Shown here: piece after piece, positions 12,062 to 56,649 of the stretch
Numbering within the stretch: position 1 is the first letter of the stretch
Layout of the letters: every line of letters begins with the position of its first letter
Assembly (NCBI RefSeq): GCF_031769215.1
Contig: NW_026782349.1
Location: 239,634-303,633 of the forward strand
Reading direction: 5' to 3'
Length of the DNA: 64,000 nucleotides
From: Ylistrum balloti
Lineage: Eukaryota
Program-made: the position numbers and the translations under genes
The notes under the pieces: model-generated
What the model saw: only the letters and a program-made list of their open reading frames with translations
Databases searched by the model: none
Told to the model about the DNA's origin: nothing

Positions 12062-12194
12062 GTATGGAGTGGTTCTAAAAAAACTGGAATTAATTAAAGA
12101 ATCAATGGAAATATTTGTGGAGGCAATAACACATGAGCCTTTACATTGGGGTGCGTGGCAGGAACTGGCTGGACTCATCACAGACAAGGAGACG
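12062..12194 (+). CDS. CDC23: CDC23 exon 5 (YGVVLKKLELIKESMEIFVEAITHEPLHWGAWQELAGLITDKET)
   Basis: Matches human YGVVLRKLDLVKEAIDVFVEATHVLPLHWGAWLELCNLITDKEM. Donor acg|GTAGGT at 12195. The 51-bp minisatellite begins here. Confidence 0.85.
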
Positions 12195-12895
12195 GTAGGT
12201 GTTGGAAGGAGGAGCTGGATTCATCACAGTGAAAGAGATGATAGGTGTTGGAGGAGGCAAGGGAGGGAATGGGCTGGACTCATCACAGATAAGGAGACAG
12301 AAGATGTTAGAGGAAGGGAGGGGGCTGGACTCATCACAGATAAGGAGACAGAAGATGTTAGAGGGAGGGAGGGGGCTGGACTCATCACAGATAAGGAGAC
12401 AGAAGATGTTAGAGGGAGAGAGGGGGCTGGACTCATCACAGATAAGGAGACAGAAGATGTTAGAGGGAGGGAGGGGGCTGGACTCATCACAGATAAGGAG
12501 ACAGAAGATGTTAGAGGGAGGAAGGGGCTGAACTCATCACAGATAAGGAGACAGAAGATGTTAGAGGGAGGGAGGGAGGGGGCTGGACTTATCATAGATA
12601 AAAGACAGAAGATGTTAAAGGGAGGGAGGGGGCAGGAGTCATCACAAATAGAAGATAGTAGGTGTTAGATGAGGCAGAGGAGGGAGGGGGCTGGAGTCAT
12701 TGATGATAAGGATAAGGTAGGTAGAGAGGGCAGGAGAGGATGGGACTGGACTCATTACAGATAAGGTGATGGTAAATGTCAAGGGAGGGTGGCTGGACTC
12801 CTAACAGATATGGAGATGGTAAATGTCAAGGGAGGGTGGCTGGACTCATCACAGATATGGAGATGGTAGATGTTGGGAAAGGTGGCTGATTGTAG
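12166..12895 (+). repeat. 51-bp minisatellite, about 14 units, seeded at the CDC23 exon 5 donor
   Basis: Period 51. The unit is GGCTGGACTCATCACAGATAAGGAGACAGAAGATGTTAGAGGGAGGGAGGG. The first unit is the exon end plus donor (GGCTGGACTCATCACAGACAAGGAGACGgtaggtgttgg). Later units carry gacAGAAGAtg, with the GT lost. Confidence 0.9.
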
Positions 12896-13063
12896 ATTGT
12901 AGGAATTTGTGTAGGTAATTTTTTTCTTTTTGTTTTGATGGTAAGACACACTTGATTTAAAGGAAAACAAAACCAGTTTTGATATTTATCACTAAGAGTG
13001 GTCAGCGTGAACTATCTTGTCCCCAGCGACACTTTGATTCTGTTAGTATTTTGTGTCCAACAG

Positions 13064-13241
13064 CTGTTATCCCTGTACCTGCCAAACCACTGGATAAAGA
13101 ATGTGTTTCTAGCCCACATCTACCTCCAACTCCAACTGAATGAGGAGGCAATGAAGATCTACCAGAGCTTGGCAGAAAATGGGTTTGCCAAAAGTTCCTA
13201 CATTGTATCACAGATAGCAGTGGCTTATCACAACATGAGAG
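13064..13241 (+). CDS. CDC23: CDC23 exon 6 (LLSLYLPNHWIKNVFLAHIYLQLQLNEEAMKIYQSLAENGFAKSSYIVSQIAVAYHNMR)
   Basis: Matches human FLSLPDTWMKEFFLAHIYTELQLIEEALQKYQNLIDVGFSKSSYIVSQIAVAYHNIRD. Acceptor ccaacAG; the first donor is g|GTGAGTAG at 13242. That donor is copied about 32 times in the downstream array, so the donor actually used is ambiguous. The first copy gives the correct frame. Confidence 0.8.
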
Positions 13242-14955
13242 GTGAGTAGTTCCAACATTGTATCACAGATAGCAGTGACTTACCACAACATGAGAGGTGA
13301 GTAGTTCCAACATTGTATCACAGATAGCAGTGACTTACCACAACATGAGAGGTGAGTAGTTCCAACAATGTATCACAGATAGCAGTGACTTACCACAACA
13401 TGAGAGGTGAGTAGTTCCAACAATGTATCACAGATAGCAGTGACTTACCACAACATGAGAGGTGAGTAGTTCCAACAATGTATCACAGATAGCAGTGACT
13501 TACCACAACATGAGAGGTGAGTAGTTCCTACATTGTATCACAGATAGCAGTGACTTACCACAACATGAGAGGTGAGTAGTTCCTACAATGTATCACAGAT
13601 AGCAGTGACTTACCACAACATGAGAGGTGAGTAGTTCCAACAATTTATCACAGATAGCAGTGACTTACCACTACATGAAAGGTGAATAGTTCCTACATTG
13701 TATAACAGATAGCAGTGACTTACCACAACATGAGAGGTGAGTAGTTCCAACAATGTATCACAGATAGCAGTGACTTACCACAACATGAGAGGTGAGTAGT
13801 TCCAACATTGTATCACAGATAGCAGTGACTTACCACAACATGAGAGGTGAGTAGTTCCTACAATGTATCACAGAAACAGTGACTTACCACAATATGAGAG
13901 GTGAGTAGTTCCAACATTGTATCACAGATAGCAGTGACTTACCACAACATGAGAGGTGAGTAGTTCCTACAATGTATCACAGATAGCAGTGACTTACCAC
14001 AACATGAGAGGTGAGTAGTTCCTACAATGTATCACAGATAGCAGTGACTTACCACAACATGAGAGGTGAGTAGTTCCAACAATTTATCACAGATAGCAGT
14101 GACTTACCACTACATGAAAGGTGAATAGTTCCTACATTGTATAACAGATAGCAGTGACTTACCACAACATGAGAGGTGAGTAGTTCCAACAATGTATCAC
14201 AGATAGCAGTGACTTACCACAACATGAGAGGTGAGTAGTTCCAACATTGTATCACAGATAGCAGTGACTTACCACAACATGAGAGGTGAGTAGTTCCAAC
14301 ATTGTATCACAGATAGCAGTGACTTACCACAACATGAAAGGTGAGTAGTTCCTACATTGTATCACAGATAGCAGTGACTTACCACAACATGAGAGGTGAG
14401 TAGTTCCAACATTGTATCACAGATAGCAGTGACTTACCACAACATGAGAGGTGAGTAGTTCCAACATTGTATCACAGATAGCAGTGACTTACCACAACAT
14501 GAGAGGTGAGTAGTTCCAACATTGTATCACAGATAGCAGTGACTTACCACAACAGGAGAGGTGAGTAGTTCCAACATTGTATCACAGATAGCAGTGACTT
14601 ACCACTACATGAGAGGTGAGTAGTTCCAACATTGTATCACAGATAGCAGTGACTTACCACAACAGGAGAGGTGAGTAGTTCCAACATTGTATCACAGATA
14701 GCAGTGACTTACCACTACATGAAAGGTGAATAGTTCCAACAATGTATCACAGATAGCAGTGACTTACCACAACATGAAAGGTGAGTAGTTCCTACATTGT
14801 ATCACAGATAGCAGTGACTTACCACTACATGAAAGGTGAATAGTTCCAACAATGTATCACAGATAGCAGTGACTTACCACAACATGAGAGGTGAGTAGTT
14901 CCTACATTGTATCACAGATAGCAGTGACTTACCACAACATGAGAGGTGAGTAGTT
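13193..14955 (+). repeat. 55-bp minisatellite, about 32 units, made of copies of the CDC23 exon 6 end plus 5' splice site
   Basis: Period 55. The unit is TTCCAACATTGTATCACAGATAGCAGTGACTTACCACAACATGAGAGgtgagtag. Every unit retains AGGTGAGTAG. Confidence 0.95.
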
Positions 14956-15120
14956 TTAAAACCCTAAACTGAATTTCATTAGTTTGATTTTGTGATTTAA
15001 AAACATTGAATGTTTTATATTTGTAGAAAAATCCCTACATTTTGAGTCATTAAGAAAATCTACTAAACTGTCATGGTTCACATGTATGGTCAGTGACAGT
15101 GGTTTATTTTGTTGCTGTAG

Positions 15121-15218
15121 ATGTAGATCAGGCAATGACTGTGTTCACAGAGCTTCAGGAAATGGACCCCTACAGACTGGAAAATATGGACATTTTCTCC
15201 AACCTGCTCTATATCAAG
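15121..15218 (+). CDS. CDC23: CDC23 exon 7 (DVDQAMTVFTELQEMDPYRLENMDIFSNLLYIK)
   Basis: Matches human IDKALSIFNELRKQDPYRIENMDTFSNLLYVR. Acceptor ttgctgtAG; donor GTTTAC at 15219. Confidence 0.8.
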
Positions 15219-16138
15219 GTTTACTCTATATTCTATAATAATTCTAATAAAGAAAGAACATCTGATACTTGTAATGTTCATATCTAATGGCAGAAATTTT
15301 ATATCAATTAATACTCCATAAGCTTAATCTTATATCTATCTATAAATTTAGTTGTTTGGATGGTGTTTGTTCAGAGCTCTCACACCCCATTTTGGGACTA
15401 GGGCCTGGGGCCCTTAGAATTGGGTAAAATAATGGTGTTTTCCTTAGAATTGGGAAAACTTGGGGTCTAAATTGGGAAAAAAGATACTATTTTGCATTGG
15501 GAATGGAGCCGAATATCAGCCCCAAATCTGGCAGATCGAGAGTGCTGTTGTTAAACTCTGATCAATATGTCACTCTCTTGAACATTTCTGTGTTAATTAT
15601 TTCATGGTTAGAAAATTTACTGTTCTGATTAGTTCTAGAAGGTTTCCATCTCTACAGTCATTCAGATCAGAGAGATGTACATACACCAGTTATGTTTCCT
15701 AGTGTATCTCTATCTAAGTCATAATAGCACATGTTTGCTTATCACTTAACTATCCTGTTAACAGTTTAAAAACACCTATTACATAATTAATATGTGTGTA
15801 TTATGACCTAGCAGAGCTGTGATTGCATGAAGGTTCCCATTGCTTTGTGGCATCATGTGGAAAGTGACATCATCAAAAAGAGATGGACCATAGATTTTGT
15901 ATTAGCCTTGTAAAATTATATTGACACAAATGTTGCGAAAATATCCTTATTATGTGATAAACAGTGTCTTGCATATATTTCCATTTCATATCTCAGATTG
16001 AATAAAAATTTAAAAGACCTCCTTCATTTCCATTTGAATCAAGACTCATATAAGATCCTTTCTATTTAATGTTAGTTGTTGGTGCATTCTGAATGACATT
16101 ATGATAACCTTGTGACAGATGGTCCCATGCTATTGTAG

Positions 16139-16220
16139 GAGATGAGAGCTGAACTTGCCAACCTAGCTCACAAGTGTTGTGATATTGATAAATACCGGGT
16201 AGAGACTTGCTGTGTTATAG
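16139..16220 (+). CDS. CDC23: CDC23 exon 8 (EMRAELANLAHKCCDIDKYRVETCCVIG)
   Basis: Matches human SMKSELSYLAHNLCEIDKYRVETCCVIG. Donor GTATGT at 16221. Confidence 0.85.
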
Positions 16221-16261
16221 GTATGTAATCTAAATACTTTACATGTGTATGTCAAAAGTTT

Positions 16262-19200
16262 ATGATGTTGTACACTGCATTGTGATATACTGTGGACAAG
16301 GCTATGATATTGGTACACTGTGTTCTGTGATATACTGTGGACAAGGCTATGATAATGTACCCTGTGTTCTGTGATATACTGTGGACAAGGCTATGATATT
16401 GTACTGTGTGTTCTATGATATACTGTGGACAAGGCTATGATAATGGTACACTGTGTGTACTGTGATATACTGTGGACAAGGCTATGATATTGTACACTGT
16501 GTTCTGTGATATACTGTGGACAAGGCTATGATATTGTACACTGTGTTCTGTGATATACTGTGGACAAGGCTATGATATTGTACACTGTGTTCTGTGATAT
16601 ACTGTGGACAAGGCTATGATATTGTACTGTGTGTACTGTGATATACTGTGGACAAGGCTATGATATTGTACCCTGTGTTCTGTGATATACTGTGGACAAG
16701 GCTATGATATTGTACTGTGTGTACTGTGATATACTGTGGACAAGGCTATGATATTGTACACTGTGTTCTGTGATATACTGTGGACAAGGCTATGATATTG
16801 TACACTGTGTTCTGTGATATACTGTGGACAAGGCTATGACAATGGTACACTGTTCTGTGATATACTGTGGACAAGGCTATGATATTGTACACTGTGTTCT
16901 GTGATATACTGTGGACAAGGCTATGATATTGTACTGTGTGTACTGTGATATACTGTGGACAAGGCTATGATATTGTACACTGTGTTCTGTGATATACTGT
17001 GGACAAGGCTATGATATTGTACACTGTGTTCTGTGATATACTGTGGACAAGGCTATGACAATGGTACACTGTTCTGTGATATACTGTGGACAAGGCTATG
17101 ATATTGTACACTGTGTTCTGTGATATACTGTGGACAAGGCTATGATATTGTACTGTGTGTACTGTGATATACTGTGGACAAGGCTATGATATTGTACACT
17201 GTGTTCTGTGATATACTGTGGACAAGGCTATGATATTGTACTGTGTGTACTGTGATATACTGTGGACAAGGCTATGATATTGTACTGTGTGTACTGTGAT
17301 ATACTATGGACAAGGCTATAATATTGTACTGTGTGTACTGTGATATACTGTGGACAAGGCTATGATATTGTACACTGTGTTCTGTGATATACTGTGGACA
17401 AGGCTATGATATTGTACTGTGTGTACTGTGATATACTGTGGACAAGGCTATAATATTGTACTGTGTGTACTGTGATATACTGTGGACAAGGCTATGATAT
17501 TGTACACTGTGTTCTGTGATATACTATGGACAAGGCTATGATATTGTACCCTGTGTGTACTGTGATATACTGTGGACAAGGCTATGATATTGTACTGTGT
17601 GTACTGTGATATACTGTGGACAAGGCTATGATATTGTACACTGTGTTCTGTGATATACTGTGGACAAGGCTATGATATTGTACTGTGTGTACTGTGATAT
17701 ACTGTGGACAAGGCTATGATATTGTACTGTGTGTACTGTGATATACTGTGGACAAGGCTATGATATTGTACTGTGTGTACTGTGATATACTGTGGACAAG
17801 GCTATGATATTGTACACTGTGTTCTGTGATATACTGTGGACAAGGCTATGATATTGTACTGTGTGTACTGTGATATACTGTGGACAAGGCTATGATAATG
17901 TACACTGTGTTCTGTGATATACTGTGGACAAGGCTATGATATTGTACACTGTGTGTTATACTGTGTTATATTGTGGACAAGGCTATGATATTGTACACTG
18001 TGTGTTATACTGTGTTATACTGTGGACAAGGCTATGATATTGTACACTGTGTTCTGTGATATACTGTGGACAAGGCTATGATATTGTACTGTGTGTACTG
18101 TGATATACTGTGGACAAGGCTATGATATTGTACTGTGTGTACTGTGATATACTGTGGACAAGGCTATGATATTGTACTGTGTGTACTGTGATATACTGTG
18201 GACAAGGCTATGATATTGTACACTGTGTTCTGTGATATACTGTGGACAAGGCTATGATATTGTACTGTGTGTACTGTGATATACTGTGGACAAGGCTATG
18301 ATAATGTACACTGTGTTCTGTGATATACTGTGGACAAGGCTATGATATTGTACACTGTGTGTTATACTGTGTTATATTGTGGACAAGGCTATGATATTGT
18401 ACACTGTGTGTTATACTGTGTTATACTGTGGACAAGGCTATGATATTGTACACTGTTCTATGATAAACTGTGGACAAGGCTATGATATTGTAATGTGTGT
18501 ACTGTGATATACTGTGGACAAGGCTATGATATTGTACTGTGTGTACTGTGATATACTGTGGACAAGGCTATGATATTGTACTGTATGTACTGTGATATAC
18601 TGTGGACAAGGTTATGATATTGTACACTGTGTTCTGTGATATACTGTGGACAAGGCTATGATATTGTACTGTGTGTACTGTGATTTACTGTGGACAAGGC
18701 TATGATATTGTACTGTGTGTACTGTGATATACTGTGGATAAGGCTATGATATTGTACTGTGTGTACTGTGATATACTGTGGACAAGGCTATGATATTGTA
18801 CTGTATGTACTGTGATATACTGTAGACAAGGCTATGATATTGTACTGTATGTACTGTGATATACTGTGGACAAGGCTATGATATTGTACACTGTGTTCTG
18901 TGATATACTGTGGACAAGACTATGATATTATACACTGTGTTCTGTGATATACTGTGGACAAGGCTATGGTATTGTACTGTGTGTACTGTGATATACTGTG
19001 GACAAGGCTATGATATTGTACTGTGTGTACTGTGATATACTGTGGACAAGGCTATGGTATTGTACTGTGTGTTCTATGATATACTGTGGACAAGGCTATG
19101 ACAATGGTACACTGTGTGTTCTGTGATATACTGTGGACAAGGCTATGATATTGTACACTGTGTTCTATGATATACTGTGGACAAGGCTATGATATTGTAC

Positions 19201-22200
19201 TGTGTGTACTGTGATATACCGTGGACAAGGCTATGATATTGTACTGTGTGTACTGTGATGTACTGTGGACAAGGCTATGATATTGTACTGTGTGTACTGT
19301 GATGTACTGTGGACAAGGCTATGATATTGTACTGTGTGTACTGTGATATACTGTGGACAAGGCTATGATATTGTACTGTGTGTACTGTGATATACTGTGG
19401 ACAAGGCTATGATATTGTACACTGTGTTCTATGATATACTGTGGACAAGGCTATGATATTGTACTGTGTGTACTGTGATATACTGTGGACAAGGCTATGA
19501 TATTGTACTGTGTGTACTGTGATGTACTGTGGACAAGGCTATGATATTGTACTGTGTGTACTGTGATGTACTGTGGACAAGGCTATGATATTGTACTGTG
19601 TGTACTGTGATGTACTGTGGACAAGACTATGATATTGTACACTGTGTTCTGTGATATACCGTGGACAAGGCTATGACAATGGTACACTGTGTTCTGTGAT
19701 ATACTGTGGACAAGGCTATGATATTGTACACTGTGTTCTATGATATACTGTGGACAAGGCTATGATATTGTACTGTGTGTACTGTGATATACTGTGGACA
19801 AGGCTATAATATTGTACTGTGTGTACTGTGATATACTGTGGACAAGGCTATGATATTGTACACTGTGTTCTGTGATATACTGTGGACAAGGCTACCCTGT
19901 GTGTACTGTGTTGATATACTGTGGACAAGGCTATGATATTGTACTGTGTGTACTGTGATATACTGTGGACAAGGCTATGATATTGTACACTGTGTGTCTG
20001 TGATATACTGTGGACAAGGCTATGATATTGTACTGTGTGTACTGTGATATACTGTGGACAAGGCTATGATATTGTACTGTGTGTACTGTGATATACTGTG
20101 TGTGTACTGTGTGACTGTGATATACTGTGGACAAGGCTATGATATTGTACACTGTGTGTCTGTGATATACTGTGGACAAGGCTATGATATTGTACTGTGT
20201 GTACTGTGATATACTGTGGACAAGGCTATGATATTGTACACTGTGTTCTGTGATATACTGTGGACAAGGCTATGATATTGTACTGTGTGTACTGTGTGTG
20301 TTATACTGTGTTATATTGTGGACAAGGCTATGATATTGTACATGTGTGTGTGTGTACTGTGATATACTGTGGACAAGGCTATGATATTGTACTGTGTTCT
20401 GTGATATACTGTGGACAAGGCTATGATAGTGTACTGTGTGTACTGTGATATACTGTGGACAAGTCTATGATATTGTACTGTGTGTACTGTGATATATTGA
20501 TATTGTACTGTGTGTACTGTGATATACTGTGGACAAGGCTATGATATTGTACTGTGTGTACTGTGATATACTGTGGACAAGCTATGATATTGTACTGTGT
20601 GATATACTGTGGACAAGGCTATGATATGTGTACTGTGATATACTGTGGACAAGGCTATGATATTGTACTGTGTTACTGTGATATACTGTGGACAAGGCTA
20701 TGATATTGTACTGTGTGTACTGTGATATGATACTGTGGACTGTGATATAAGGCTATGATATTGTACTGTGATATACTGTGGACAAGGCTATGATATTACT
20801 GTGTGTTGATATTGTGGACAAGGTGTGTACTGTGTATACTGTGGACAAGGCTATGATATTGTACACTGTGTTCTATGATATACTGTGGACAAGGCTATGA
20901 TATTGTACTGTGTGTACTGTGATATACTGTGGACAAGGCTATGATATTGTACTGTGTGTACTGTGATATACTGTGGACAAGGCTATGATATTGTACTGTG
21001 TGTACTGTGATATACTGTGGACAAGGCTATGATATTGTACTGTGTGTGTGTACTGTGACATACTGTGGACAAGGCTATGATATTCTACTGTATGTACTGT
21101 GATCTACTGTAGACACGGCTATGCTATTGTACTGTTTGTACTGTGATATACTGTGGACAAGGCTATGATATTGTACTGTGTGTACTGTGATATACTGTGG
21201 ACAAGGCTATGATATTGTACTGTGTGTACTGTGATCTACTGTGGACAAGGCTATGATATTGTACTGTGTGTACTGTGATATACTGTGGACAAGGCTATGA
21301 TATTGTACTGTGTGTACTGTGATATACTGTGGACAAGGCTATGATATTGTACTGTGTGTACTGTGATATACTGTGGACAAGGCTATGATATTGTACTGTG
21401 TGTACTGTGATATACTGTGGACAAGGCTATGATATTGTACACTGTGTTCTGTGATATACTGTGGACAAGGCTATGATATTGTACAGTGTGTACTGTGATA
21501 TACTGTGGACAAGGCTATGATATTGTACTGTGTGTACTGTGATTTACTGTGGACAAGGCTATGATATTGTACTGTGTGTACTGTGATATACTGTGGACAA
21601 GGCTATGATATTGTACACTGTGTTCTGTGATATACTGTGGACAAGGCTATATGATATGTGATATACTGTGTGATATTGTACTGTGTGATATACTGTGGAC
21701 AAGGCTATGATACTGTGTGTACTGTGTGTACTGTGTGATATACTGTGGACAAGGCTACTGTGATATTGTACTGTGTACTGTGTGTACTGTGATATACTGT
21801 GGACAAGGCTATGATATTGTACTGTGTGTACTGTGATATACTGTGGACAAGGCTATGATATTGTACTGTGTGTACTGTGCTATGATTGTACTGTGTGTAC
21901 TGTGGACAAGGCTATGACTGTGTGTATTGTACTGTGTGTACACTGTGTGTACTGATATACTGTGGACAAGGCTATGATATTGTACACTGTGTTCTGTGAT
22001 ATACTGTGGACAAGGCTATGATATTGTACACTGTGTTGGACAAGGCTATGATATACTGTGGACAAGGCTATGATATTGTACTGTGTGTACTGTGATATAC
22101 TGTGGACAAGGCTATGATATTGTACTGTGTGTTCTGTGATATACTGTGGACAAGGCTATGATATTGTACACTGTGTTCTGTGATATACTGTGGACAAGGC

Positions 22201-23556
22201 TATGATATTGTACACTGTGTGTTCTGTGATATACTGTGGACAAGGCTATGATATTGTACACTGTGTGTACTGTGATATACCGTGGACAAGGCTATGATAT
22301 TGTACTGTGTGTTCTGTGATATACTGTGGACAAGGCTATGATATTGTACACTGTGTGTTCTGTGACATACTGTGGACAAGGCTATGGTATTGTACACTGT
22401 GTGTACTGTGATATACCGTGGACAAGACTATGATATTGTACTGTGTGTACTGTGATATACTGTGGACAAGGCTATGATATTGTACTGTGTGTTCTGTGAT
22501 ATACCGTGGACAAGGCTATGATATTGTACTGTGTGTTCTGTGATATACCGTGGACAAGGTTATGATATTGTACTGTGTGTACTGTGATATACTGTGGACA
22601 AGGCTATGATAATGGTACACTGTGTGTTCTGTGATATACTGTGGACAAGGCTATGATATTGTACACTGTGTTCTGTGATATACTGTGGACAAGGCTATGA
22701 TATTGTACTGTGTGTTCTGTGATATACTGTGGACAAGGCTATGATATTGTACTGTGTGTACTGTGATATACTGTGGACAAGGCTATGATATTGTACTGTG
22801 TGTACTGTGATATACTGTGGACAAGGCTATGATATTGTACACTGTGTGTTCTGTGATATACTGTGGACAAGGTTATGATATTGTACACTGTGTTCTGTGA
22901 TATACTGTGGACAAGGCTATGATATTGTACACTGTGTGTTCTGTGATATACTGTGGACAAGGCTATGATATTGTACACTGTGTTCTGTGATATACCGTGG
23001 ACAAGGCTATGATATTGTACACTGTGTTCTGTGATATACTGTGGACAAGGCTATGATATTGTACACTGTGTTCTGTGATATACTGTGGACAAGGCTATGA
23101 TATTGTACACTGTGTGTTCTGTGATATACTGTGGACAAGGCTATGATATTGTACACTGTGTTCTGTGATATACTGTGGACTATGATATTGTACACTGTGT
23201 GTTCTGTGATATACTGTGGACAAGACTATGATATTGTACACTGTGTTCTGTGATATACTGTGGACAAGGCTATGATATTGTACTGTGTGTACTGTGATAT
23301 ACTGTGGACAAGGTTATGATATTGTACTGTGTGTTCTATGATATACTGTGGACAAGGCTATGATAATGGTACACTGTGTGTTCTGTGATATACTGTGGAC
23401 AAGGCTATGATATTGTACTGTGTGTTGTGTGATATACTGTGGACAAGGCTATGATATTGTACTGTGTGTTCTGTGATATACTGTGGACAAGGCTATGGTA
23501 TTGTACACTGTTGTGTGATATACATTTGACAAGGTTATGATATTGTACACTGTATT
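16262..23556 (+). repeat. About 7.3-kb minisatellite (unit about 44-45 bp, about 165 copies) filling CDC23 intron 8
   Basis: Unit TGTGGACAAGGCTATGATATTGTACACTGTGTTCTGTGATATAC. It has degenerate patches at 20100-20850 and 21640-22060. It ends in the acceptor of exon 9. Confidence 0.95.
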
Positions 23557-23561
23557 TGTAG

Positions 23562-23726
23562 GTAACTACTATTCTATACGACAACAGCATGAGAAGGCGG
23601 TACTGTACTTCCAGAGGGCACTAAAACTTAACCCCCACTACTTATCTGCCTGGACTCTGATGGGCCACGAATTCATGGAACTGAAGAACACGTCTGCTGC
23701 TCTTCAGGCTTACAGACAGGCAATAG
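23562..23726 (+). CDS. CDC23: CDC23 exon 9 ([54 protein letters not shown])
   Basis: Matches human [54 protein letters not shown]. The acceptor tatttgtAG is the last, degenerate unit of the 7.3-kb array. Donor GTAAAA at 23727. Confidence 0.85.
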
Positions 23727-23989
23727 GTAAAAAAGCTGACAGTTTAATTCACTTTAAAATAATATTATTTCTGTATAATTATACACAGTTATTGTTTAAC
23801 AGAGAATGTTATGAAACCAGAGGCATTCACAGAGAAGAACTACAAGCTACCGTCAGGTGAAGAGTATGGATTTTAATCTCACACAGTATGAGTCAATTTC
23901 TGTACAGATGAACTTCAGCATTATGTGATAGTTAAAGGCTTTATGCTCACATAGTCTAAAGGTGGCATTGTTTTTATATTTGGCTGGTA

Positions 23990-24420
23990 TGTTCCTAGGA
24001 TAATGACTGACAAAGTTTGCAAAAAGAAATGACCTTGACCTATATTCAAAGTTACAGGGGTCAGATTTGTAAAAACTTCAATGACTTTTTCTTATAAACT
24101 AAAAGGCCTTGATGCATGTTATGTGATTGGTTTGTACCTATGATGAAGCTTGACAAAGTCTACGAATATAAATTACCTAAACTTATATTCAAGGTCACAA
24201 GAGTCAGATTTTTTAAAACCTTTTAATGATTTTTTTTTCTGATGAACTAAAAGGCCTACAGGCATGATATTTGGCTAGTATTTTACTAGGATGAAAACTA
24301 TCTAAGTTTGCGAAAAAGAATGACCTTGACTTACATTCAAGGTCACAGGGATGAAATTTGTTAAAACATTTAAATGACATCTTCTCATGAACTAAAAGGC
24401 CTAGAGGCATGATATTTGGC
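23990..24420. repeat. About 120-bp tandem unit x3 (..AATGACCTTGACCTATATTCAAGGTCACAGGGGTCAGATTTGT..)
   Basis: Direct reading. The GACCTTGACC/CAAGGTCA-containing unit is related to the array at 42470-42900. Confidence 0.8.
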
Positions 24421-24650
24421 TGGTATATAAATATATGCTAGGTGAATGCTGTAGGCCCAATGGACCTCTTGTTATCCCTCAGAATCAGACGAGAGGTCCG
24501 ATAGTGGAAATGGTGTAAAATTTTCCAAAAAATTAAGTTTTGGGTGAATAAGGTTATTTAGATATCATTTATTGGAATGTTATAGTTTAGACTGATTCCA
24601 CTTTTAGTACAGCTAATTAACCATGTTGAAATGTAACTCTTTTAAATCAG

Positions 24651-24759
24651 AGGTTGAACGGCGAGACTACCGAGCATGGTACGGACTTGGACAAACCTAC
24701 GAAATCCTGAAGATGCATTACTACTGTCTCTACTACTATCGACAAGCCCAAAAACTCAG
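24651..24759 (+). CDS. CDC23: CDC23 exon 10 ([36 protein letters not shown])
   Basis: Matches human [36 protein letters not shown]. Donor GTGAGT at 24760. Confidence 0.85.
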
Positions 24760-26158
24760 GTGAGTTATTGTATTATTCTAGCTGTGTAATGATATGTCCA
24801 CTTATCAATTTACTGCGATAGCTTTTGTCTCGATAGCAATAAGTGAATAAGATATTTTCACGGCAATAACTATTGCAATAGTTTGTTCATCTATTGATTG
24901 TTAATGATAGTTCCTTTTAACTAAATAAAAATGCTACTTGAAAGCAAGATTTTTCACCAAGTTATTGCCTATTTATAAAAGCATCTTTGGGACCTTGATG
25001 GGGGTAACATTAGGTAAAAGAATGGCACAATGACCTGCTTAGAATAGAAAAAGAAAAATGAGAGTTTATATATTAAATAAGTATTGTATTGTTATTGTTT
25101 CCAATATGGTGTAATTAAATCAACAAATTATAGTAAGGGAGATGGTGACTTTAATTCTGGGTCCATTTTTCATCCTTGAAATGGCCCATTTCGATAAACA
25201 ACATAGTGGAAGGTAGTGGCATTTCAAAAATTGTTCCTAATAAACAGTCACGACGGCAGTAGGACAACATTTTGTTACATGAAAATTAATGACAAAGTGT
25301 CGCATAACTGTTCACAATTAATCTCCAGTTTGTGAAGTACGGACACTTTTGTTTGGTAAATAGCTATATATATCATACCTTTACTATTTAGGCCTACTAA
25401 CATTAAATATACATTTCTTTGATATGGCAAAGATTTATAAAGTCAGACTTCAACCAAATAATTGTATGACTGCGGAATTTTTAATCACCTTTTGAAACGT
25501 AAGTCAAGTTTGAAATAAAGATGCAATTATACTAATCTATCATAAAACTAAGACTATCATTGTGCAACATACCTGATTGTCTACATATTGCCAAAATATG
25601 ATATTTTCAAAAATGTTCAGCTCTAACATTTGGTAAATTGAGTATTTATTTGTTGATTAGAAAACACATGCTAAGGTTAAATCACCATCATGATAGTATT
25701 GCAATACTCACCTAACTATCATAATAATATCACAGTAGTTATTTTACTAATGCAATACTAACGTGATAGCTTTTTTGATCTCAATGGTCATCTCAAATTG
25801 TTGTCCAACCCAGAAACTCATATGATGATTCACTATTTTTCACAGTCACAGACAGTCAGGTGCATCAGTACTTACATCACCCCTAAAACCTCAGGCAAAA
25901 TGCTATAACTAATAGGTCTTTTGAATATGCAATAGAACTTCAGGAAAGTTTGTATTTTCATTGAACTTTAAACCTCAAGCATGTCAACTTAGATATTCTC
26001 CATTTGCCCAGTTTTTTTTATAAAAGTAAGGAAGGTGAATTATAAAGACAAAAGCAGACCAGTTATTCTGATTTCGTATGTTAATAGATAAGACTTAATT
26101 TGGGATTATTTGTATACATATTTTGTGTGTATTTAGATTTCTCAGCATTCATTTTCAG

Positions 26159-26296
26159 ACCAAATGACTCACGCATGGTAATGGCACTGGGAGAGACTTA
26201 TGAGAAATTAGATAGACTACAGGAGGCCAAGAAATGTTTCTGGAAAGCTAACTGTATAGGTGATATGGAGGGAACAGCTCTCATCAAACTAGCCAG
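26159..26296 (+). CDS. CDC23: CDC23 exon 11 (RPNDSRMVMALGETYEKLDRLQEAKKCFWKANCIGDMEGTALIKLA)
   Basis: Matches human RPNDSRMLVALGECYEKLNQLVEAKKCYWRAYAVGDVEKMALVKLA. Donor ag|GTAAGT at 26297. The 45-bp array of exon-end plus donor copies starts here. Confidence 0.85.
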
Positions 26297-27580
26297 GTAA
26301 GTAATGGGTAGAGAGGGAACAGATCTCATCAAACTAGCCAGGTAAGTAATGGGTAGAGAGAGACAGCTCTCATCAAACTATCCCAGGTAAGTAATGGGTA
26401 GAGAGGGAACAGATCTCATCAAACTAGCCAGGTAAGTAATGGGTAGAGAGGGAACAGATCTCATCAAACTAGCTAGGTAAGTAATGGGTAGAGAGAGACA
26501 GCTCTCATCAAACTATCCCAGGTAAGTAATGGGTAGAGAGGGAACAGATCTCATCAAACTAGCCAGGTAAGTAATGGGTAGAGAGGGAACAGCTCTCATC
26601 AAACTAGCCAGGTAAATAATGGGTAGAGAGGGAACAGATCTCATCAAACTAGCCAGGTAAGTAATGGGCACAGAGGGAATGGCTCTCATCAAACTAGCCA
26701 GGGAAGTAATGGGTAGAGAGGGAACAGCTCTCATCAAACTAGCCAGGTAAGTAATGGGTAGAGAGGGAACAGCTCTCATCAAACTAGCCAGGTAAATAAT
26801 GGGTAGAGAGGGAACAGATCTCATCAAACTAGCCAGGTAAGTAATGAGTAGATAGGGAACAGCTCTCATCAAACTAGCCAGGTAAGTAATGGGTAGAGAG
26901 GGAACAGCTCTCATCAAACTAGCCAGGTAAGTAATGGGTAGAGAGGGAACAGCTCTCATCAAACTAGCCAGGTAAATAATGGGTAGAGAGGGAACAGATC
27001 TCATCAAACTAGCCAGGTAAGTAATGAGTAGATAGGGAACAGCTCTCATCAAACTAGCCAGGTAAGTAATGGGCACAGAGGGAATGGCTCTCATCAAACT
27101 AGCCAGGGAAGTAATGGGTAGAGAGGGAACAGCTCTCATCAAACTAGCCAGGGAAGTAATGGGTAGAGAGGGAGCAGCTCTCATCAAACTATCCCAGGTA
27201 AGTAATGGGTAGAGAGGGAACAGCTCTCATCAAACTAGCCAGGTAAGTAATGGGTAGTGACTACTGCCAACTGTATTGGTGATATGGAGGGAACAGCTTT
27301 CATCAAACTAGCCAGGGAAGTAATGGGTAGAGAGGGAACTGCTCTCATCAAACTAGCCAGGTAAGTAATGGGTAGAGAGGGAACAGCTCTCATCAAACTA
27401 TCCCAGGTAAGTAATGGGTAGAGACGGAACAGCTCTCATCAAACTAGCCAGGTAAGTAATGGGTAGAGAGGGAACAGATCTCATCAAACTAGCCAGGTAA
27501 GTAATGGGTAGTGACTATGGTAAACTGTATAGGTGATATTGAGGGAATGACTATCATCAAACTAGCCAGGTAAGTATTTG
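26266..27580 (+). repeat. 45-bp minisatellite, about 29 units, made of copies of the CDC23 exon 11 end plus 5' splice site
   Basis: Period 45. The unit is GGGAACAGCTCTCATCAAACTAGCCAGgtaagtaatgggtagaga. Nearly all units keep CAGGTAAGTA. Confidence 0.95.
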
Positions 27581-29679: not shown

Positions 29680-30600
29680 TGAAATAATTAGATTGGAGAA
29701 TCTACTGGTAGAAATCTAACTTTGCCTAGGACTGGTTAGGTAATTAAATGGGAGGCTCTGCTGGTAGGAATCTCACTTTGCCTAGGACTGGTTAGGTAAT
29801 TAGAGGGGAGGCTCTACTGGTAGAAATCTCACTGGGCCTAGGGCTGGTTAGGTAATTAGAGGGGAGGCTCTGCTGGTAGGAATCTCACTGGGCCTAGGAC
29901 TGGTTAGGTAATTAGAGGGGAGGCTCTACTGGTAGAAATCTCACTGGGCCTAGGACTGGTTAGGTAGTTAGATAGGAGGATCTACTGGTAGAAATCTCAC
30001 TGGGCCGAGGACTGGTTATGTAATTAGATAGGAGGATCTACTGGTAGAAATCTCACTGGGCCTAGGACTGGTTAGGTAATTATAGGGGAGGCTCTACTGG
30101 TAGAAATCTCACTGGGCCTAGGACTGGTTAGGTAATTAGAGGGGAGGCTCTGCTGGTAGAAATCTCACTGGGCCTAGGACTGGTTAGGTAATTAGAGGGG
30201 AGGCTCTACTGGTAGAAATCTCACTGGGCCTAGGACTGGTTAGGTAGTTAGATAGGAGGATCTACTGGTAGAAATCTCACTGGGCCGAGGACTGGTTATG
30301 TAATTAGATAGGAGGATCTACTGGTAGAAATCTCACTGGGCCTAGGACTGGTTAGGTAATTATAGGGGAGGCTCTACTGGTAGAAATCTCACTGGGCCTA
30401 GGACTGGTTAGGTAATTAGAGGGGAGGCTCTACTGGTAGAAATCTCACTGGGCCTAAGACTGGTTAGGTAATTAAATGGGAGGCTCTGCTGGTAGGAATC
30501 TGTGGACCAAGGACTGGTGAAATATATGGGAGGCCCTGCTGGTAGAATTCATACTGGGTCAAGGACAGGTGAAGTAATCAGACAGGAGGCTGTACTGATG
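29680..30600 (+). repeat. About 58-bp minisatellite, about 15 units, directly downstream of the CDC23 stop (probable 3'UTR or downstream flank)
   Basis: Unit CTGGTAGAAATCTCACTGGGCCTAGGACTGGTTAGGTAATTAGAGGGGAGGCTCTA. Confidence 0.9.
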
Positions 30601-36110: not shown

Positions 36111-36189
36111 AATCTGGACAAGTTTACTAACCACAACAGAGATGTGTAATATTGAGTACAAAATTGTGTACCACATTAACTCCATAATA

Positions 36190-38815
36190 GTTAGAAATGT
36201 TGAGTATTGAGGTGTGGAATTCACTACCTGCTAAAAGGGTGTGTAACATTAAGTGTAGAAGTGTGGATTATACACTGACCACTATAGGGGTGTGTAATGT
36301 GAGTATAGAGGTGTGTAATGTTGAGAATTGAGGTACGTACTGCACTAACTCCTGTAATGGTGTGTAATGTGAGTACAGAGGTGTGTAATGTTGAGTATAG
36401 AGGAGTGTACAGCACTAACCCCTATAATGGTGTGTAATGTTGAGTATAGAGGTGTGGACTTCACTAACCCCTATAATGGTGTTTAATGTTGATTATTGAG
36501 GTGTGAACTTCACTAACTGCTATAATGGTGTGTAATGTTGAGTACAGAGGTGTGGACTTCACTAAGCACTATAATGGTGTGTAATGTTGAGTATAGAGGT
36601 GTGGACTTCACTAACCCCTATAATGGTGTGTAATGTTGAGTATAGAGGTGTGGACTTCACTAACCCCTATAATGGTGTGTAATGTGAGTACAGAGGTGTT
36701 TACAGCACTAACCCCTATAATGGTGTGTAATGTTGAGTATAGAGGTGTGGACTTCACTAACCCCTATAATGGTGTGTAATGTGAGTACAGAGGTGTTTAC
36801 AGCACTAACCCCTATAATGGTGTGTAATGTTGAGTATAGAGGTGTGGACTTCACTAACCCCTATAATGGTGTTGAATGTTGATTATTGAGGTGTGAACTT
36901 CACTAACTGCTATAATGGTGTGTAATGTTGAGTACAGAGGTGTGGACTTCACTAAGCACTATAATGGTGTGTAATGTTGAGTATTGAGGTGTGGACTTCA
37001 CTAACCCCTATAATGGTGTGTAATGTGAGTACAGAGGTGTTTACAGCACTAACCCCTATAATGGTGTGTAATGTTGAGTATAGAGGTGTGGACTTCACTA
37101 ACCCCTATAATGGTGTTTAATGTTGATTATTGAGGTGTGAACTTCACTAACTGCTATAATGGTGTGTAATGTTGAGTACAGAGGTGTGGACTTCACTAAG
37201 CACTATAATGGTGTGTAATGTTGAGTATAGAGGTGTGGACTTCACTAACCCCTATAATGGTGTGTAATGTGAGTACAGAGGTGTTTACAGCACTAACCCC
37301 TATAATGGTGTGTAATGTTGAGTATAGAGGTGTGGACTTCACTAACCACTAGAGGGATATGTAATGTTGAGTATAGAAATGTGGACTTCACTAACCCCTA
37401 TAATGGTGTGTAATGTTGAGTACAGAGGTGTGGACTTCACTAACCACTAGAGGGATATGTAATGTGAGTACAGAGGTGTGGACTTCACTAAGCACTATAA
37501 TGGTGTGTAATGTTGAGTATAGAAGTGTGGATTTCACTAACCACTAGAGGGATATGTAATGTTGAGTATAGAGGTGTGGACTTCACTAACCACTAGAGGG
37601 ATATGTAATGTTGAGTACAGAGGTGTGGACTTCACTAACCACTAGAGGGATATGTAATGTGAGTACAGAGGTGTGGACTTCACTAAGCACTATAATGGTG
37701 TGTAATGTTGAGTATAGAAGTGTGGACTTCACTAACCACTAGAGGGATATGTAATGTTGAGTACAGAGGTGTGGACTTCACTAAGCACTATAATGGTGTG
37801 TAATGTTGAGTATAGAAGTGTGGACTTCACTAACCACTAGAGGGATATGTAATGTTGAGTACAGAGGTGTGGACTTCACTAAGCACTATAATGGTGTGTA
37901 ATGTTGAGTATAGAGGTGTGGACTTCACTAACCACTAGAGGGATATGTAATGTTGAGTATAGAGGTGTGGACTTCACTAAGCACTATAATGGTGTGTAAT
38001 GTTGAGTATAGAGGTGTGGACTTCACTAACCACTAGAGGGATATGTAATGTTGAGTACAGAGGTGTGGACTTCACTAAGCACTATAATGGTGTGTAATGT
38101 TGAGTACAGAGGTGTGGACTTCACTAAGCACTATAATGGTGTGTAATGTTGAGTACAGAGGTGTGGACTTCACTAACCACTAGAGGGATATGTAATGTTG
38201 AGTACAGAGGTGTGGACTTCACTAACCACTAGAGGGATATGTAATGTTGAGTATAGAGGTGTGGACTTCACTAACCCCTATAATGGTGTGTAATGTTGAG
38301 TATAGAAGTGTGGACTTCACTAAGCACTATAATGGTGTGTAATGTTGAGTATAGAAGTGTGGACTTCACTAACCACAAGAGGGATATGTAATGTTGAGTA
38401 CAGAGGTGTGGACTTCACTAACCACTAGAGGGATATGTAATGTTGAGTATAGAAGTGTGGACTTCACTAACCCCTATAATGGTGTGTAATGTTGAGTACA
38501 GAGGTGTGGACTTCACTAACCACTAGAGGGATATGTAATGTTGAGTATAGAAGTGTGGACTTCACTAACCCCTATAATGGTGTGTAATGTTGAGTACAGA
38601 GGTGTGGACTTCACTAACCACTAGAGGGATATGTAATGTTGGGTATAGAGATGTGGACTTCACTTACCACAAGAGGGATATGTAATGTTGAGTATAGAGG
38701 TGTGGACTTCACTAACCCCTATAATGGTGTGTAATGTGAGTACAGAGGTGTTTACAGCACTAACTGCTATAATGGTGTGTAATGTTGAGTATAGAGGTAT
38801 GGATTATACACTTAC
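36190..38815 (-). repeat. 49-bp minisatellite, about 53 units, made of copies of the exon end plus donor of the minus-strand exon 38816..38993
   Basis: Minus-strand unit CCATTATAGTGGTTAGTGAAGTCCACACCTCTGTACTCAACATTACACA. Compare the exon end ..CCTTATAGTG|GTAAGTGTATAATCCATACCTCTATACTCAACATTACACAC. Confidence 0.9.
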
Positions 38816-38993
38816 CACTATAAGGATGAGCCTCTGGGTTCGACTCCTTCTTGCCTCCCTGGTTTTCAAACAGTTCCTTTCTCTCCTGTTCAAGGTAATG
38901 TTGCAGTTGGCGCTCGTGTGCTGCTAACAGGACTCGCTTCTGACGTTCACCCACACGAGATATTGTGCCTTGCTTGAAAGTCTTAAAAGCCTC
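38816..38993 (-). CDS. Exon (EAFKTFKQGTISRVGERQKRVLLAAHERQLQHYLEQERKELFENQGGKKESNPEAHPYS)
   Basis: Acceptor ctttacAG; donor g|GTAAGT at the start of the 49-bp array, whose unit copies this exon end. Confidence 0.55.
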
Positions 38994-39128
38994 CTGTAAA
39001 GTTATAAAGATTTTATTGTTTGGAATGCATCCGTGTACTTGAAACTACTATCTAAAAAATGTATGTCACCATGATCTCATTGGATTTAGAATTTTTATCA
39101 AACTCAAATATGAACTTATCTCACTAAC

Positions 39129-39409: not shown

Positions 39410-39825
39410 CTGAAACATTCATCACAATTATAACCAGTGAAAGCTGTCAACCACTTTATCTTATACACCAATTCTCATATTTTTCCTTTCTATATTCTGT
39501 GATATGCTTAAATTAAGCTTGTTCTAACTAGCTGTTGCTGGATATTCATTTTATCTATTTAGAGAGCTGTATAATGAAATTAGTAGTTAGCTCTAAGTCC
39601 AAATATGAAACAATATTTCAGTAGATACCAGGTCACTTTATCACGCCTAGAAAACTACTTCACAGGGATGGATGATGCAGAAACAAAAACGGCTGAAGAA
39701 GAGTATGCTTCAATGTCAGTTTATCTCGATAGATAACATAACCACCATGAAATCATAACTTTGTGAAGTATTTGGAAAAGTCATTTGTTTCTACAGGAAC
39801 CATCCCTGTGGTGTAGTTTCCTAAG

Positions 39826-40183
39826 TGTGTTTATACCAGTAAAGATTAATTAAAAAAAGCTTACTGTTTGGGCTGTCCTGTAAATGTGTTTATACCAGTA
39901 AAGATCAATTAAAAAAAGCTTACTGTTTGGGCTGTCCTGTAAATGTGTTTATACCAGTAAAGATCAATTAAAAATGCTTACTGTTTGGGCTGTCCTGTAA
40001 ATGTGTTTATACCAGTAAAGATCAATTAAAAAAAGCTTACTGTTTGGGCTGTCCTGTAAATGTGTTTATACCAGTAAAGATCAATTAAAAAAAGCTTACT
40101 GTTTGGGCTGTCCTGTAAATGTGTTTATACCAGTAAAGATCAATTAAAAAACGCTTACTGTTTGGGCTGTCCTGTAACTTGGC
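39826..40183 (-). repeat. 59-bp unit x6, made of copies of the exon end plus donor of the minus-strand giant exon 40159..42071
   Basis: Minus-strand unit TTACAGGACAGCCCAAACAGTAAGCTTTTTTTAATTGATCTTTACTGGTATAAACACATT. The first unit is the exon end itself, ..GCCAAGTTACAGGACAGCCCAAACA|GTAAGCG. Confidence 0.9.
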
Positions 40184-42071: not shown

Positions 42072-42212
42072 CTATGGATGAAAAGAACAATGGAATTACA
42101 TGTGATTCTACCGAAGTTTCTATAATACACAGATCACATGTGTTACATCTATCTAATCACAATCTATTATAAACTGTTACATTATAAGAGGCTCTGATCC
42201 TAAAAGTCTGAC

Positions 42213-56602: not shown

Positions 56603-56649
56603 CTGAAAAATAGACATACAAAAAGTGAGTGAAAAACAGCATGTAAAAA

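What the first reader, a model, noticed from the sequence alone, without database searches (positions are those of the whole stretch)
12166..27580. Three CDC23 introns each begin with a minisatellite made of tandem copies of the upstream exon end plus its 5' splice site
At exon 5 (donor at 12195), exon 6 (donor at 13242) and exon 11 (donor at 26297), the intron starts directly with a tandem array of 51, 55 and 45 bp respectively. Unit 1 of each array is the last 20-35 nt of the exon plus the GT donor. This is not random minisatellite insertion. The duplication breakpoints are pinned to the exon/intron junction in three separate introns of one gene, and again in a second gene (see 36190-40183). 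That suggests a splice-junction-associated mechanism, such as replication slippage or template switching on a structured junction, or RNA-mediated or R-loop-associated duplication. It may be a lineage-specific feature of genome dynamics. The arrays create tens of tandem candidate 5' splice sites.
Basis: seen in the sequence. Interest (0 to 1): 0.85.

Follow-up and report, generated by a model that had tools for sequence, protein, structure and literature searches.

The report
Splice-junction 'mirage' minisatellites in scallop genes
In this scallop (Ylistrum balloti) region, five introns of two genes begin with tandem copies of the preceding exon's end plus its splice donor; this is a real, non-random pattern that recurs in related scallops, but it belongs to a repeat class already described in amphioxus ("mirages") and in a few human genes.

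Summary
CDC23 exons 5, 6 and 11 end at 12194, 13241 and 26296. Each following intron opens with a 46-51, 55 or 45 bp array whose first unit is the exon end (28, 49, 29-47 nt) plus the donor. Two more such arrays sit on the minus strand in the neighbouring ALMS-motif gene.

Five of the window's 15 arrays span a donor, against about 0.45 expected (P about 5e-5 to 4e-4). The coding sequence is 100% identical to Ylistrum balloti CDC23, and only the first donor of each array gives that protein.

Orthologous loci in three other scallops carry the same kind of array at other junctions:
- Pecten: exon 10 and exon 11 donors.
- Argopecten: exon 8 acceptor and exon 10 donor.
- Mizuhopecten: exon 9 acceptor.

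The arrays therefore arise repeatedly and turn over.

The breakpoints are not pinned to the junction; they lie 12-49 nt into the exon and 6-41 nt into the intron. The units share no common hairpin or strand skew.

This is the known "mirage" class (Cañestro 2002; F7, CBS and IFI6 in humans), here in a new phylum and at high density. The arrays most likely arose by microhomology slippage and expanded by unequal exchange. They are tolerated because the outermost splice site is used. Why they cluster at junctions remains open.

The parts
12062..12194 (+). CDC23 exon 5; its last 28 nt (GCTGGACTCATCACAGACAAGGAGACG) form the exon part of array unit 1
   Evidence: Exon model and continuous ORF; human CDC23 alignment; 100% tblastn match to Ylistrum balloti CDC23; exon copies found in the intron
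12167..12881 (+). Array A1: about 13 units in three subfamilies (46-48, 51 and 45-48 bp). Unit 1 is the exon 5 end plus GTAGGT. GGCTG microhomology lies at the distal end. The GT is kept in 5 of 13 units.
   Evidence: TRF; unit table; donor count
13064..13241 (+). CDC23 exon 6; its last 49 nt form the exon part of array unit 1
13193..14955 (+). Array A2: 32 units of 55 bp, each 49 nt of exon plus GTGAGT only. The array ends in a 4-nt partial unit, AGTT. All 31 intronic units share two substitutions (GCT>ACT, TAT>TAC) that the exon copy lacks. The GT is kept in 32 of 32 units and GTGAGT in 28 of 32.
   Evidence: TRF; unit table
26159..26296 (+). CDC23 exon 11; its last 29 nt (47 nt in the 'long' copies) form the exon part of the unit
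26250..27580 (+). Array A3: about 28 units of 45 bp (29 exon + 16 intron nt), plus two 73-bp 'long' units starting at AACTGTATAGG. The GT is kept in 24 of 28 units and GTAAGT in 21. An in-frame TAA follows each donor.
   Evidence: TRF; unit table; donor count. The Pecten orthologue has a 56-bp array with the same left boundary
40159..42133 (-). Large exon of the ALMS-motif gene (5' limit not determined). It ends in CCCAAACA, with the donor GTAAGC at 40158.
   Evidence: ORF and splice phase fit the next exon, 39409-39129. Orthologous exons map in Pecten
39822..40177 (-). Array A9: 6 units of 59 bp (19 exon + 40 intron nt), 97% identical. GTAAGC is kept in 6 of 6 units.
   Evidence: TRF; unit table; donor count. 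Absent from the orthologous 415-nt Pecten intron
38816..38993 (-). ALMS-motif exon of the second gene, ending in ...CATCCTTATAGTG with the donor GTAAGT at 38815
   Evidence: Pfam PF15309, E=2e-8; sequence and reading frame
36141..38827 (-). Array A8: about 55 units of 49 bp (about 12 exon + 37 intron nt). The first and last units share GTGTATAATCCA, while the interior units are homogenised to GTTAGTGAAGTCC. Most donors are weakened to GTTAGT.
   Evidence: TRF; unit table; donor count. Absent from the orthologous 242-nt Pecten intron
16281..23548 (+). 44 bp x 163 array filling CDC23 intron 8 and stopping 13 nt before the exon 9 acceptor. It may be a degenerate acceptor-side array; derivation from an exon is not demonstrated.
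   Evidence: TRF; sequence; alignment to exon 8/exon 9, p=0.02/0.13; similarity to the Mizuhopecten 69-bp array that spans the exon 9 acceptor, p=0.004

Best explanation
These are 'mirage'-type minisatellites, meaning local tandem arrays whose repeat unit spans an exon-intron boundary.

Birth (inferred). A short segment covering the exon end, the donor and 6-41 nt of intron was duplicated in tandem. The likely cause is replication slippage or template switching between short direct repeats.

Growth (largely shown by the unit patterns). The array then grew through multi-unit duplication or unequal exchange among the intronic copies. The exon-borne first unit and the last unit stayed outside this homogenisation.

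Tolerance (shown indirectly). The most upstream donor is the one that produces the conserved protein, so every further copy is removed as intron. Using a downstream copy would add a premature stop or a frameshift in four of the five arrays.

Turnover (shown across species). The arrays are young and unstable, appearing, expanding and collapsing independently at different junctions in different scallops.

The excess at splice junctions is real in these data. Its cause is not established. Because the junction sits at no fixed place in the unit, what the unit contains (a splice site and exon sequence) seems to matter, rather than a break at the junction.
For: Units derive from the adjacent exon.
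- Only exons 5, 6 and 11 have extra copies. All are in the same orientation and all lie in the exon's own downstream intron (unit tables).

Microhomology or partial units at the distal ends.
- AGTT after the last 55-bp unit, and GGCTG after the last exon 5 unit.
- In Mizuhopecten the exon 6 donor is followed by AGTTCATACA, the first 10 nt of the same unit.

Expansion from the intronic copies.
- All 31 intronic exon 6 units share two changes that the exon copy lacks, and blocks of several units recur.
- The first and last units of the 49-bp array share GTGTATAATCCA against a homogenised interior.

The first donor is the functional one.
- The first-donor splice model gives a gapless match to human CDC23 and 100% identity to the annotated Ylistrum protein.
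- In-frame TAG or TAA stops, or frameshifts, follow the donors.

Non-randomness.
- Five donor-spanning arrays are observed against 0.45 expected.
- In the other three scallops, 5 junction-spanning arrays are observed against 0.59 expected for periods below 100 bp.

Turnover.
- The exon 5, exon 6 and both second-gene arrays are absent from Pecten. Pecten has arrays at the exon 10 and exon 11 donors, Argopecten at the exon 8 acceptor and exon 10 donor, and Mizuhopecten at the exon 9 acceptor plus a 3-copy relic at exon 10.
- A more distant relative (70% amino-acid identity) has the exon 5 donor at the same position with no array.

Same class in the literature: PMC3087553, PMC3902484, PMC1557585.
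Against: - No RNA data were available, so use of the first donor rests on protein conservation and the public annotation.
- The slippage origin is inferred from 4-10 nt terminal partial units, which can equally be the ragged end of any array.
- Uniform birth with tolerance does not explain the roughly 10-fold excess at junctions over intron interiors.
- The window had been picked because it shows the pattern. With all period sizes included, the cross-species excess is only marginal (5 observed against 2.0 expected, P=0.05).
- The Mizuhopecten assembly contains gaps and may have collapsed some arrays.
Confidence: 0.8

Rival explanations
1. A splicing- or transcription-coupled mutational process acts at the 5' splice site itself and generates the duplications there. 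Candidates are polymerase pausing, R-loops, or RNA-templated repair.
For: - Donor-spanning arrays are in excess.
- The arrays follow gene orientation on both strands.
- The pattern recurs at several junctions in four species.
- Three units end only 6-9 nt into the intron, roughly the stretch of the donor consensus: Ylistrum exon 6 at +6, Pecten exon 11 at +9, and the last exon 11 copy at +7.
Against: - Breakpoints are scattered from -49 to -12 in the exon and from +6 to +41 in the intron.
- The units share no hairpin.
- The sign of GC skew relative to transcription is not shared.
- Acceptor-side arrays exist as well.
- The units contain intron sequence, so a spliced RNA template is excluded.
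Confidence: 0.25
2. The arrays are kept or expanded by selection because tandem U1-binding donor copies help the gene. They might reinforce use of the upstream donor or protect long introns from premature cleavage.
For: - Every unit class includes the splice site, whatever the breakpoints.
- The GT is retained in 32/32, 24/28 and 6/6 units of three arrays.
- For human F7, the authors proposed that consecutive donor copies stimulate selection of the most upstream site (PMC1557585).
- The exon 10 array is present in three scallop genera.
Against: - Donors are lost or weakened in most units of A1 (5/13 keep GT), of A8 (mostly GTTAGT) and of the 271-copy Argopecten exon 10 array (CACATGAGT), yet those arrays persist.
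- High retention in A2, A3 and A9 is expected simply from their youth (92-97% unit identity).
- Each array is missing from at least one sister species with the same conserved gene.
Confidence: 0.12
3. It is coincidence. Ordinary intronic minisatellites in a very repeat-rich genome happen to abut exons, with no enrichment.
For: - Minisatellites cover 30% of the window and 14-50% of CDC23 in the other scallops.
- Ten of the 15 arrays in the window do not contain exon sequence.
- The window had been pre-selected.
Against: - P is about 5e-5 to 4e-4 in the window.
- Independent junction-spanning arrays occur in three other species, P about 3e-3 to 4e-4 for periods below 100 bp.
- The units demonstrably contain exon sequence.
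Confidence: 0.05
4. The arrays are an assembly artefact, or exon fragments captured and amplified by a transposon.
For: Tandem arrays are error-prone in assemblies. The Mizuhopecten locus contains 541 N.
Against: - The units carry structured variants and higher-order blocks.
- Comparable arrays occur in three independent assemblies, partly at the same junction with the same boundary.
- The copies are contiguous with the parent exon and are found nowhere else in the window.
- There are no terminal repeats or other transposon features.
Confidence: 0.02

Closest known systems
'Mirage' minisatellites of amphioxus (Adh3, globins BflGb6/9, troponin C, PGBD5; Cañestro et al. 2002, as cited in PMC3087553 and PMC3902484)
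   Same: - Tandem minisatellite-size units that span an exon-intron boundary and reiterate the splice signal.
- Both donor-side and acceptor-side cases occur.
- Edge units are excluded from homogenisation.
- Normal mRNA is still made.
- The origin is described in the literature as unclear.
   Different: - Different phylum: bivalve mollusc rather than cephalochordate.
- Much higher local density, with five arrays in 64 kb and three in one gene.
- Far larger arrays, up to 55 units here and 271 in Argopecten.
- Here there is cross-species evidence of gain, sharing and collapse at orthologous junctions.
- Length polymorphism and somatic instability, shown in amphioxus, could not be tested.
Human VNTRs whose first monomer spans a donor: F7 IVS7 (37 bp), CBS IVS13, IFI6 (6-16) intron 2, LMNB2, PDGFA intron 4 (PMC1557585)
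   Same: - The authentic donor is followed by identical pseudo-donors.
- In F7, LMNB2 and PDGFA only the most upstream site is normally used.
- Unit sizes are 37-100 bp.
   Different: - The human cases are isolated single loci with 5-26 copies.
- Here several occur per gene.
- Donor usage was tested experimentally in humans but not here.
Intron gain by tandem duplication of an AGGT-containing exon segment (Rogers model; PMC3265369)
   Same: A tandem duplication that includes splice signals lets the duplicated exon sequence be removed as intron.
   Different: No new intron is created here. All the affected introns sit at positions shared by four scallops, and exon 5's position is also shared with a more distant relative. 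The duplication extends an existing intron.

Membership tests
Mirage (exon-intron boundary) minisatellite | Head-to-tail array of minisatellite-size units (about 10-160 bp) | tested here: met
   Periods of 45-59 bp with 6-55 copies and 87-97% matches
Mirage (exon-intron boundary) minisatellite | The unit contains part of the exon plus the splice signal and adjoining intron | tested here: met
   Exon parts of 28, 49, 29-47, 19 and about 12 nt, followed by GTAGGT, GTGAGT, GTAAGT, GTAAGC and GTAAGT
Mirage (exon-intron boundary) minisatellite | The array is contiguous with the authentic exon, lies in the same orientation and is confined to that intron | tested here: met
   All extra exon copies are on the + strand in the exon's own downstream intron. 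The two minus-strand arrays start at their own exon ends
Mirage (exon-intron boundary) minisatellite | Normal splicing is maintained through use of the outermost authentic site | tested here: inconclusive
   The first-donor model reproduces the conserved protein and the annotated protein exactly. No transcript data were available
Mirage (exon-intron boundary) minisatellite | Length instability or polymorphism of the array | not testable with these tools
   Only one haplotype per species was available. Between-species gain and loss is shown
Intron gain by tandem duplication (Rogers model) | The duplication creates an intron at a position that lacks one in relatives | tested here: not met
   All 12 mapped exons (exons 3-14), and therefore the intron positions between them, are conserved in Pecten, Mizuhopecten and Argopecten
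Transposon-borne or dispersed satellite | Copies of the unit at unrelated loci, or transposon termini flanking the array | tested here: not met
   Within the 64 kb window the units occur only next to their parent exon. No Rfam or tRNA-derived element was found. The rest of the genome was not searched

The most novel reading that the evidence does not exclude
In scallops, tandem arrays preferentially arise or expand from segments that contain a splice site. This would reveal either a splicing- or transcription-coupled form of DNA instability, or selection for arrays of U1-binding sites. Genome-wide it would be a major driver of intron size, as suggested by CDC23 spanning 16 kb in Pecten, 26 kb in Ylistrum and 82 kb in Argopecten. 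It would also provide natural series of up to hundreds of competing identical donors.
Probability: 0.3. Interest if true: 0.7.

Novelty: new member of a known kind. Interest (0 to 1): 0.45.

Why it matters
- The origin of mirage-type arrays was described as unclear in the amphioxus papers read here, and no genome-wide study turned up in the literature searches.
- Scallops appear to carry them at high density, and chromosome-scale or multi-megabase assemblies exist for several species. This makes the enrichment question (mutation bias or selection) directly testable.
- The arrays are natural experiments on 5' splice-site choice, with 6 to more than 250 tandem decoy donors.
- They contribute to large differences in intron size between close relatives.
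- They are a practical hazard for gene annotation and read mapping at exon ends.

Tried and rejected
- **44-bp intron 8 array.** Derivation from the exon 8 end or the exon 9 start was not demonstrated (p=0.02 and 0.13). There is only a weak link to the Mizuhopecten acceptor array (p=0.004).
- **66-, 41-, 56- and 38-bp arrays.** They were tested against flanking exons and junctions. Only the 66-bp array has a degenerate flank unit with a donor-like site, and the putative mini-exon there carries an in-frame stop in the phase the next exon requires. None of these was counted as anchored.
- **DNA hairpin or 'structured junction'.** Not a shared property of the units.
- **RNA genes.** Rfam and tRNA scans of the window found nothing.
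- **Protein searches.** The first search, with two exons at E<=1e-10, returned one fragment and wrongly suggested the database lacked eukaryotes; the full-length query resolved this. The search with the large exon of the second gene returned only unnamed fragments, so a full exon model of that gene was not obtained.
- **Amphioxus origin.** I first suspected the window came from amphioxus; the 100% match to Ylistrum balloti excludes that.
- **Literature.** Cañestro et al. 2002 is not held in the library, so it is cited only through papers that describe it. The C. elegans intronic minisatellite paper (PMC4039745) is unrelated to junction duplications.
Full report
**What is in the sequence**

TRF finds 15 tandem arrays with period of at least 10 bp, together covering 30% of the window. 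Three of them lie at the coordinates in the finding:
- 12168-12873, periods 46/51/47 bp.
- 13193-14955, 55 bp x 32.
- 26268-27576, 45 bp x about 28.

Reading the sequence shows that each array starts inside a coding exon and runs across its donor:
- ...GGCTGGACTCATCACAGACAAGGAGACG|GTAGGTGTTGG...
- ...AGTTCCTACATTG...ATGAGAG|GTGAGT
- ...GAGGGAACAGCTCTCATCAAACTAGCCAG|GTAAGTAATGGGTAGA

**Gene and organism**

I built an exon model by hand. Exons 3-14, joined at the first donor of each array, give one open frame ending in a stop codon.
- The frame matches human CDC23 (PDB 5g04_C) at E=2.5e-211, with no gap across the exon 5/6, 6/7 and 11/12 joins.
- It is 520/520 identical to XP_060076584.1, CDC23 of the saucer scallop Ylistrum balloti. 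Identity is 517/520 to Pecten maximus, 514/520 to Mizuhopecten yessoensis and 502/520 to Argopecten irradians.
- The first donor of each array is therefore the one that yields the conserved, annotated protein.

**The units are exon copies**

A blastn-short search of each exon against the whole window finds extra copies for only three exons:
- Exon 5: last 28 nt.
- Exon 6: last 49 nt, 31 copies.
- Exon 11: last 29 nt, or 47 nt in two longer copies; 27 copies.

All copies are in the same orientation and lie only in the exon's own downstream intron.

**Second gene**

The neighbouring gene runs on the minus strand and encodes an ALMS-motif protein (Pfam PF15309, E=2e-8). The same gene is the neighbour in Pecten and Mizuhopecten. 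Two of its introns begin the same way:
- The exon ending at 40159 (CCCAAACA|GTAAGC) is followed by six 59-bp units (19 exon + 40 intron nt).
- The ALMS-motif exon ending at 38816 (CATCCTTATAGTG|GTAAGT) is followed by about 55 units of 49 bp (about 12 exon + 37 intron nt).

The splice phases of these donors fit the downstream exons.

**Is it more than chance?**

- With 30 donors assumed in the window, random placement of the 15 arrays predicts 0.45 arrays whose first unit spans a donor. Five are observed.
- Simulation gives P=5.5e-5. A Poisson calculation gives 5e-5 to 4e-4 for 25-40 donors.
- Because the window had been chosen for this feature, I looked for independent evidence in orthologous loci.

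**Related species**

I fetched the CDC23 loci of Pecten maximus (L002), Mizuhopecten yessoensis (L003) and Argopecten irradians (L004). All 12 mapped exons (exons 3-14) are conserved, so these are old introns and not new ones. The arrays, however, differ between species.

| Species | Junction-spanning arrays in CDC23 |
|---|---|
| Pecten | None at exons 5 or 6. 37 bp x 32 at the exon 10 donor (GCTCAGAAACTCAG\|GTGAGTCACC...). 56 bp x 17 at the exon 11 donor, starting at the same AACTGTATAGG as the long Ylistrum copies. |
| Argopecten | 75 bp x 15 spanning the exon 8 acceptor (TTTGTAG\|GAGATGAGG..., about 60 nt of exon). 37 bp x 271 starting at the exon 10 donor and clearly homologous to the Pecten one. 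|
| Mizuhopecten | 69 bp x 6.8 spanning the exon 9 acceptor. A three-copy relic at the exon 10 donor. The exon 6 donor is followed by AGTTCATACA, the first 10 nt of the Ylistrum-type 55-bp unit. |
| Ylistrum | A single copy at exon 10. |

Further points:
- Both second-gene arrays are absent from the orthologous Pecten introns, which are 415 and 242 nt long.
- A more distant relative (Logan contig, 70% amino-acid identity) has the exon 5 donor at the same position with no array.
- Counting arrays with period below 100 bp inside CDC23 of the three other scallops, 0.59 junction-spanning arrays are expected and 5 are seen (P=4e-4). Treating the two exon 10 arrays as one event gives P=3e-3.
- With the long-period, probably transposon-derived repeats included, the excess is only marginal (2.0 expected, P=0.05).

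**Anatomy and what it says about mechanism**

1. *The breakpoints are not at the junction.* The exon/intron shares of the unit are 28/18, 49/6, 29/16 (47/about 26), 19/40 and 12/37 nt here, and 14/23 and 47/9 nt in Pecten. Only the presence of the splice site in the unit is constant.
2. *Distal ends carry short partial units.* These are AGTT after the last exon 6 unit and GGCTG after the last exon 5 unit. This is what slippage between short direct repeats would leave.
3. *Growth came from the intronic copies.* All 31 intronic exon 6 units share two substitutions (GCT>ACT, TAT>TAC) absent from the exon, which keeps the conserved AVAYHN codons, and blocks of several units recur. In the 49-bp array the first and last units share GTGTATAATCCA while the interior is homogenised to another variant. 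This is the usual signature of unequal exchange with unhomogenised edges.
4. *Donor retention varies.* The counts below come.

| Array | Units keeping GT | Note |
|---|---|---|
| Exon 6 | 32/32 | 28 are GTGAGT |
| Exon 11 | 24/28 | 21 are GTAAGT |
| 59-bp | 6/6 | |
| Exon 5 | 5/13 | |
| 49-bp | 42/55 | mostly the weaker GTTAGT |
| Argopecten exon 10 | GT lost in the consensus unit | consensus reads CACATGAGT |

5. *Misuse of a downstream donor is usually harmful.* It would give an in-frame stop (TAG after exon 6, TAA after exon 11) or a frameshift (55-, 59- and 49-bp units). Only the exon 5 array stays open in frame, and most of its units have no GT.
6. *No shared physical property.* The units share no DNA hairpin (z = +0.4, -0.3, -2.2, -1.8, +1.2). 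They share no GC skew relative to transcription either.

**Interpretation**

The arrays are local tandem duplications of a segment spanning a splice junction, later expanded by unequal exchange. They are tolerated because the outermost site (first donor or last acceptor) still makes the correct mRNA.

Tolerance explains why such duplications survive when duplications inside exons would not. It does not explain why they outnumber ordinary intronic arrays per base by roughly ten-fold. The junction's variable position within the unit argues against a break or stall at the junction itself. It points instead to the unit's content (a splice signal or exon sequence) favouring expansion or retention. 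I could not separate a mutational cause from a selective one.

**Comparison with what is known**

- Tandem duplications of exon-intron boundaries were named 'mirages' in amphioxus Adh3 (Cañestro et al. 2002; not held in the library). They have since been reported for amphioxus globins, troponin C and PGBD5. Those reports include both donor and acceptor boundaries, undisturbed splicing, unhomogenised edge units, and an origin described as unclear (PMC3087553; PMC3902484).
- Human F7 IVS7, CBS, IFI6, LMNB2 and PDGFA carry minisatellites whose first monomer spans the donor. For F7, LMNB2 and PDGFA only the most upstream site is normally used (PMC1557585).
- Four of the five defining features of the class are met or indirectly supported here. 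Length polymorphism could not be tested.
- My literature searches found no report of this class in scallops or other molluscs, and no genome-wide survey.

**Verdict**

What is new is the phylum, the density (five arrays in 64 kb, three in one gene) and the comparative evidence of recurrent gain, sharing and collapse at orthologous junctions. I rate the interest as moderate.

Noticed in passing
window 16281-23548: A 44 bp x 163 array makes up almost the whole of CDC23 intron 8 (7.3 kb) and stops 13 nt before the exon 9 acceptor. The same intron is about 640 nt in Pecten. The array is weakly similar to the Mizuhopecten 69-bp array that spans the exon 9 acceptor.
   Followed up: partly
window 56629-57259: A 41 bp x 15 array ends 25 nt upstream of a minus-strand acceptor (exon 56604-56506 of the ALMS-motif gene). 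It is pyrimidine-rich on the transcribed strand, and no exon sequence was detected in the unit.
   Followed up: partly
window 47056-48800: A 66 bp x about 24 array has a degenerate flanking unit (48663-48800) carrying a donor-like CAA|GTAAAT. It could be an old junction array, but the putative mini-exon has an in-frame stop.
   Followed up: partly
L004 10001-91725 (Argopecten irradians CDC23): The gene spans 82 kb, against 16 kb in Pecten and Mizuhopecten. Half of it is tandem arrays, including 38 bp x 250, 37 bp x 271 and 59 bp x 53.
   Followed up: partly
L003 about 18243-18258 (Mizuhopecten exon 6 donor): The donor GTGAGC is followed by AGTTCATACA, which repeats the exon sequence 49 nt upstream. 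This is either a collapsed 55-bp array (biological or through assembly) or the ancestral direct repeat that seeded the Ylistrum array.
   Followed up: partly
window 6609-7029: Open-frame remnants of a Tc1/mariner-like transposase (…KSPDLSPIEHVWDVLGRRV…) lie in CDC23 intron 1. The identification is from reading the translation only.
   Followed up: no
window 29685-30597: A 56 bp x 16 array lies about 340 nt downstream of the CDC23 stop codon, in the 3' UTR or between the two convergent genes. The unit contains TAG|GTAATT.
   Followed up: no
window 23976-24426 and 54727-55160; L002 2227-2687 and 21756-23808; L003 18848-19233 and 21267-21958; L004 several: Repeats with periods of about 146-171 bp recur in introns of all four scallops. 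They are probably an interspersed element family that forms short arrays.
   Followed up: no
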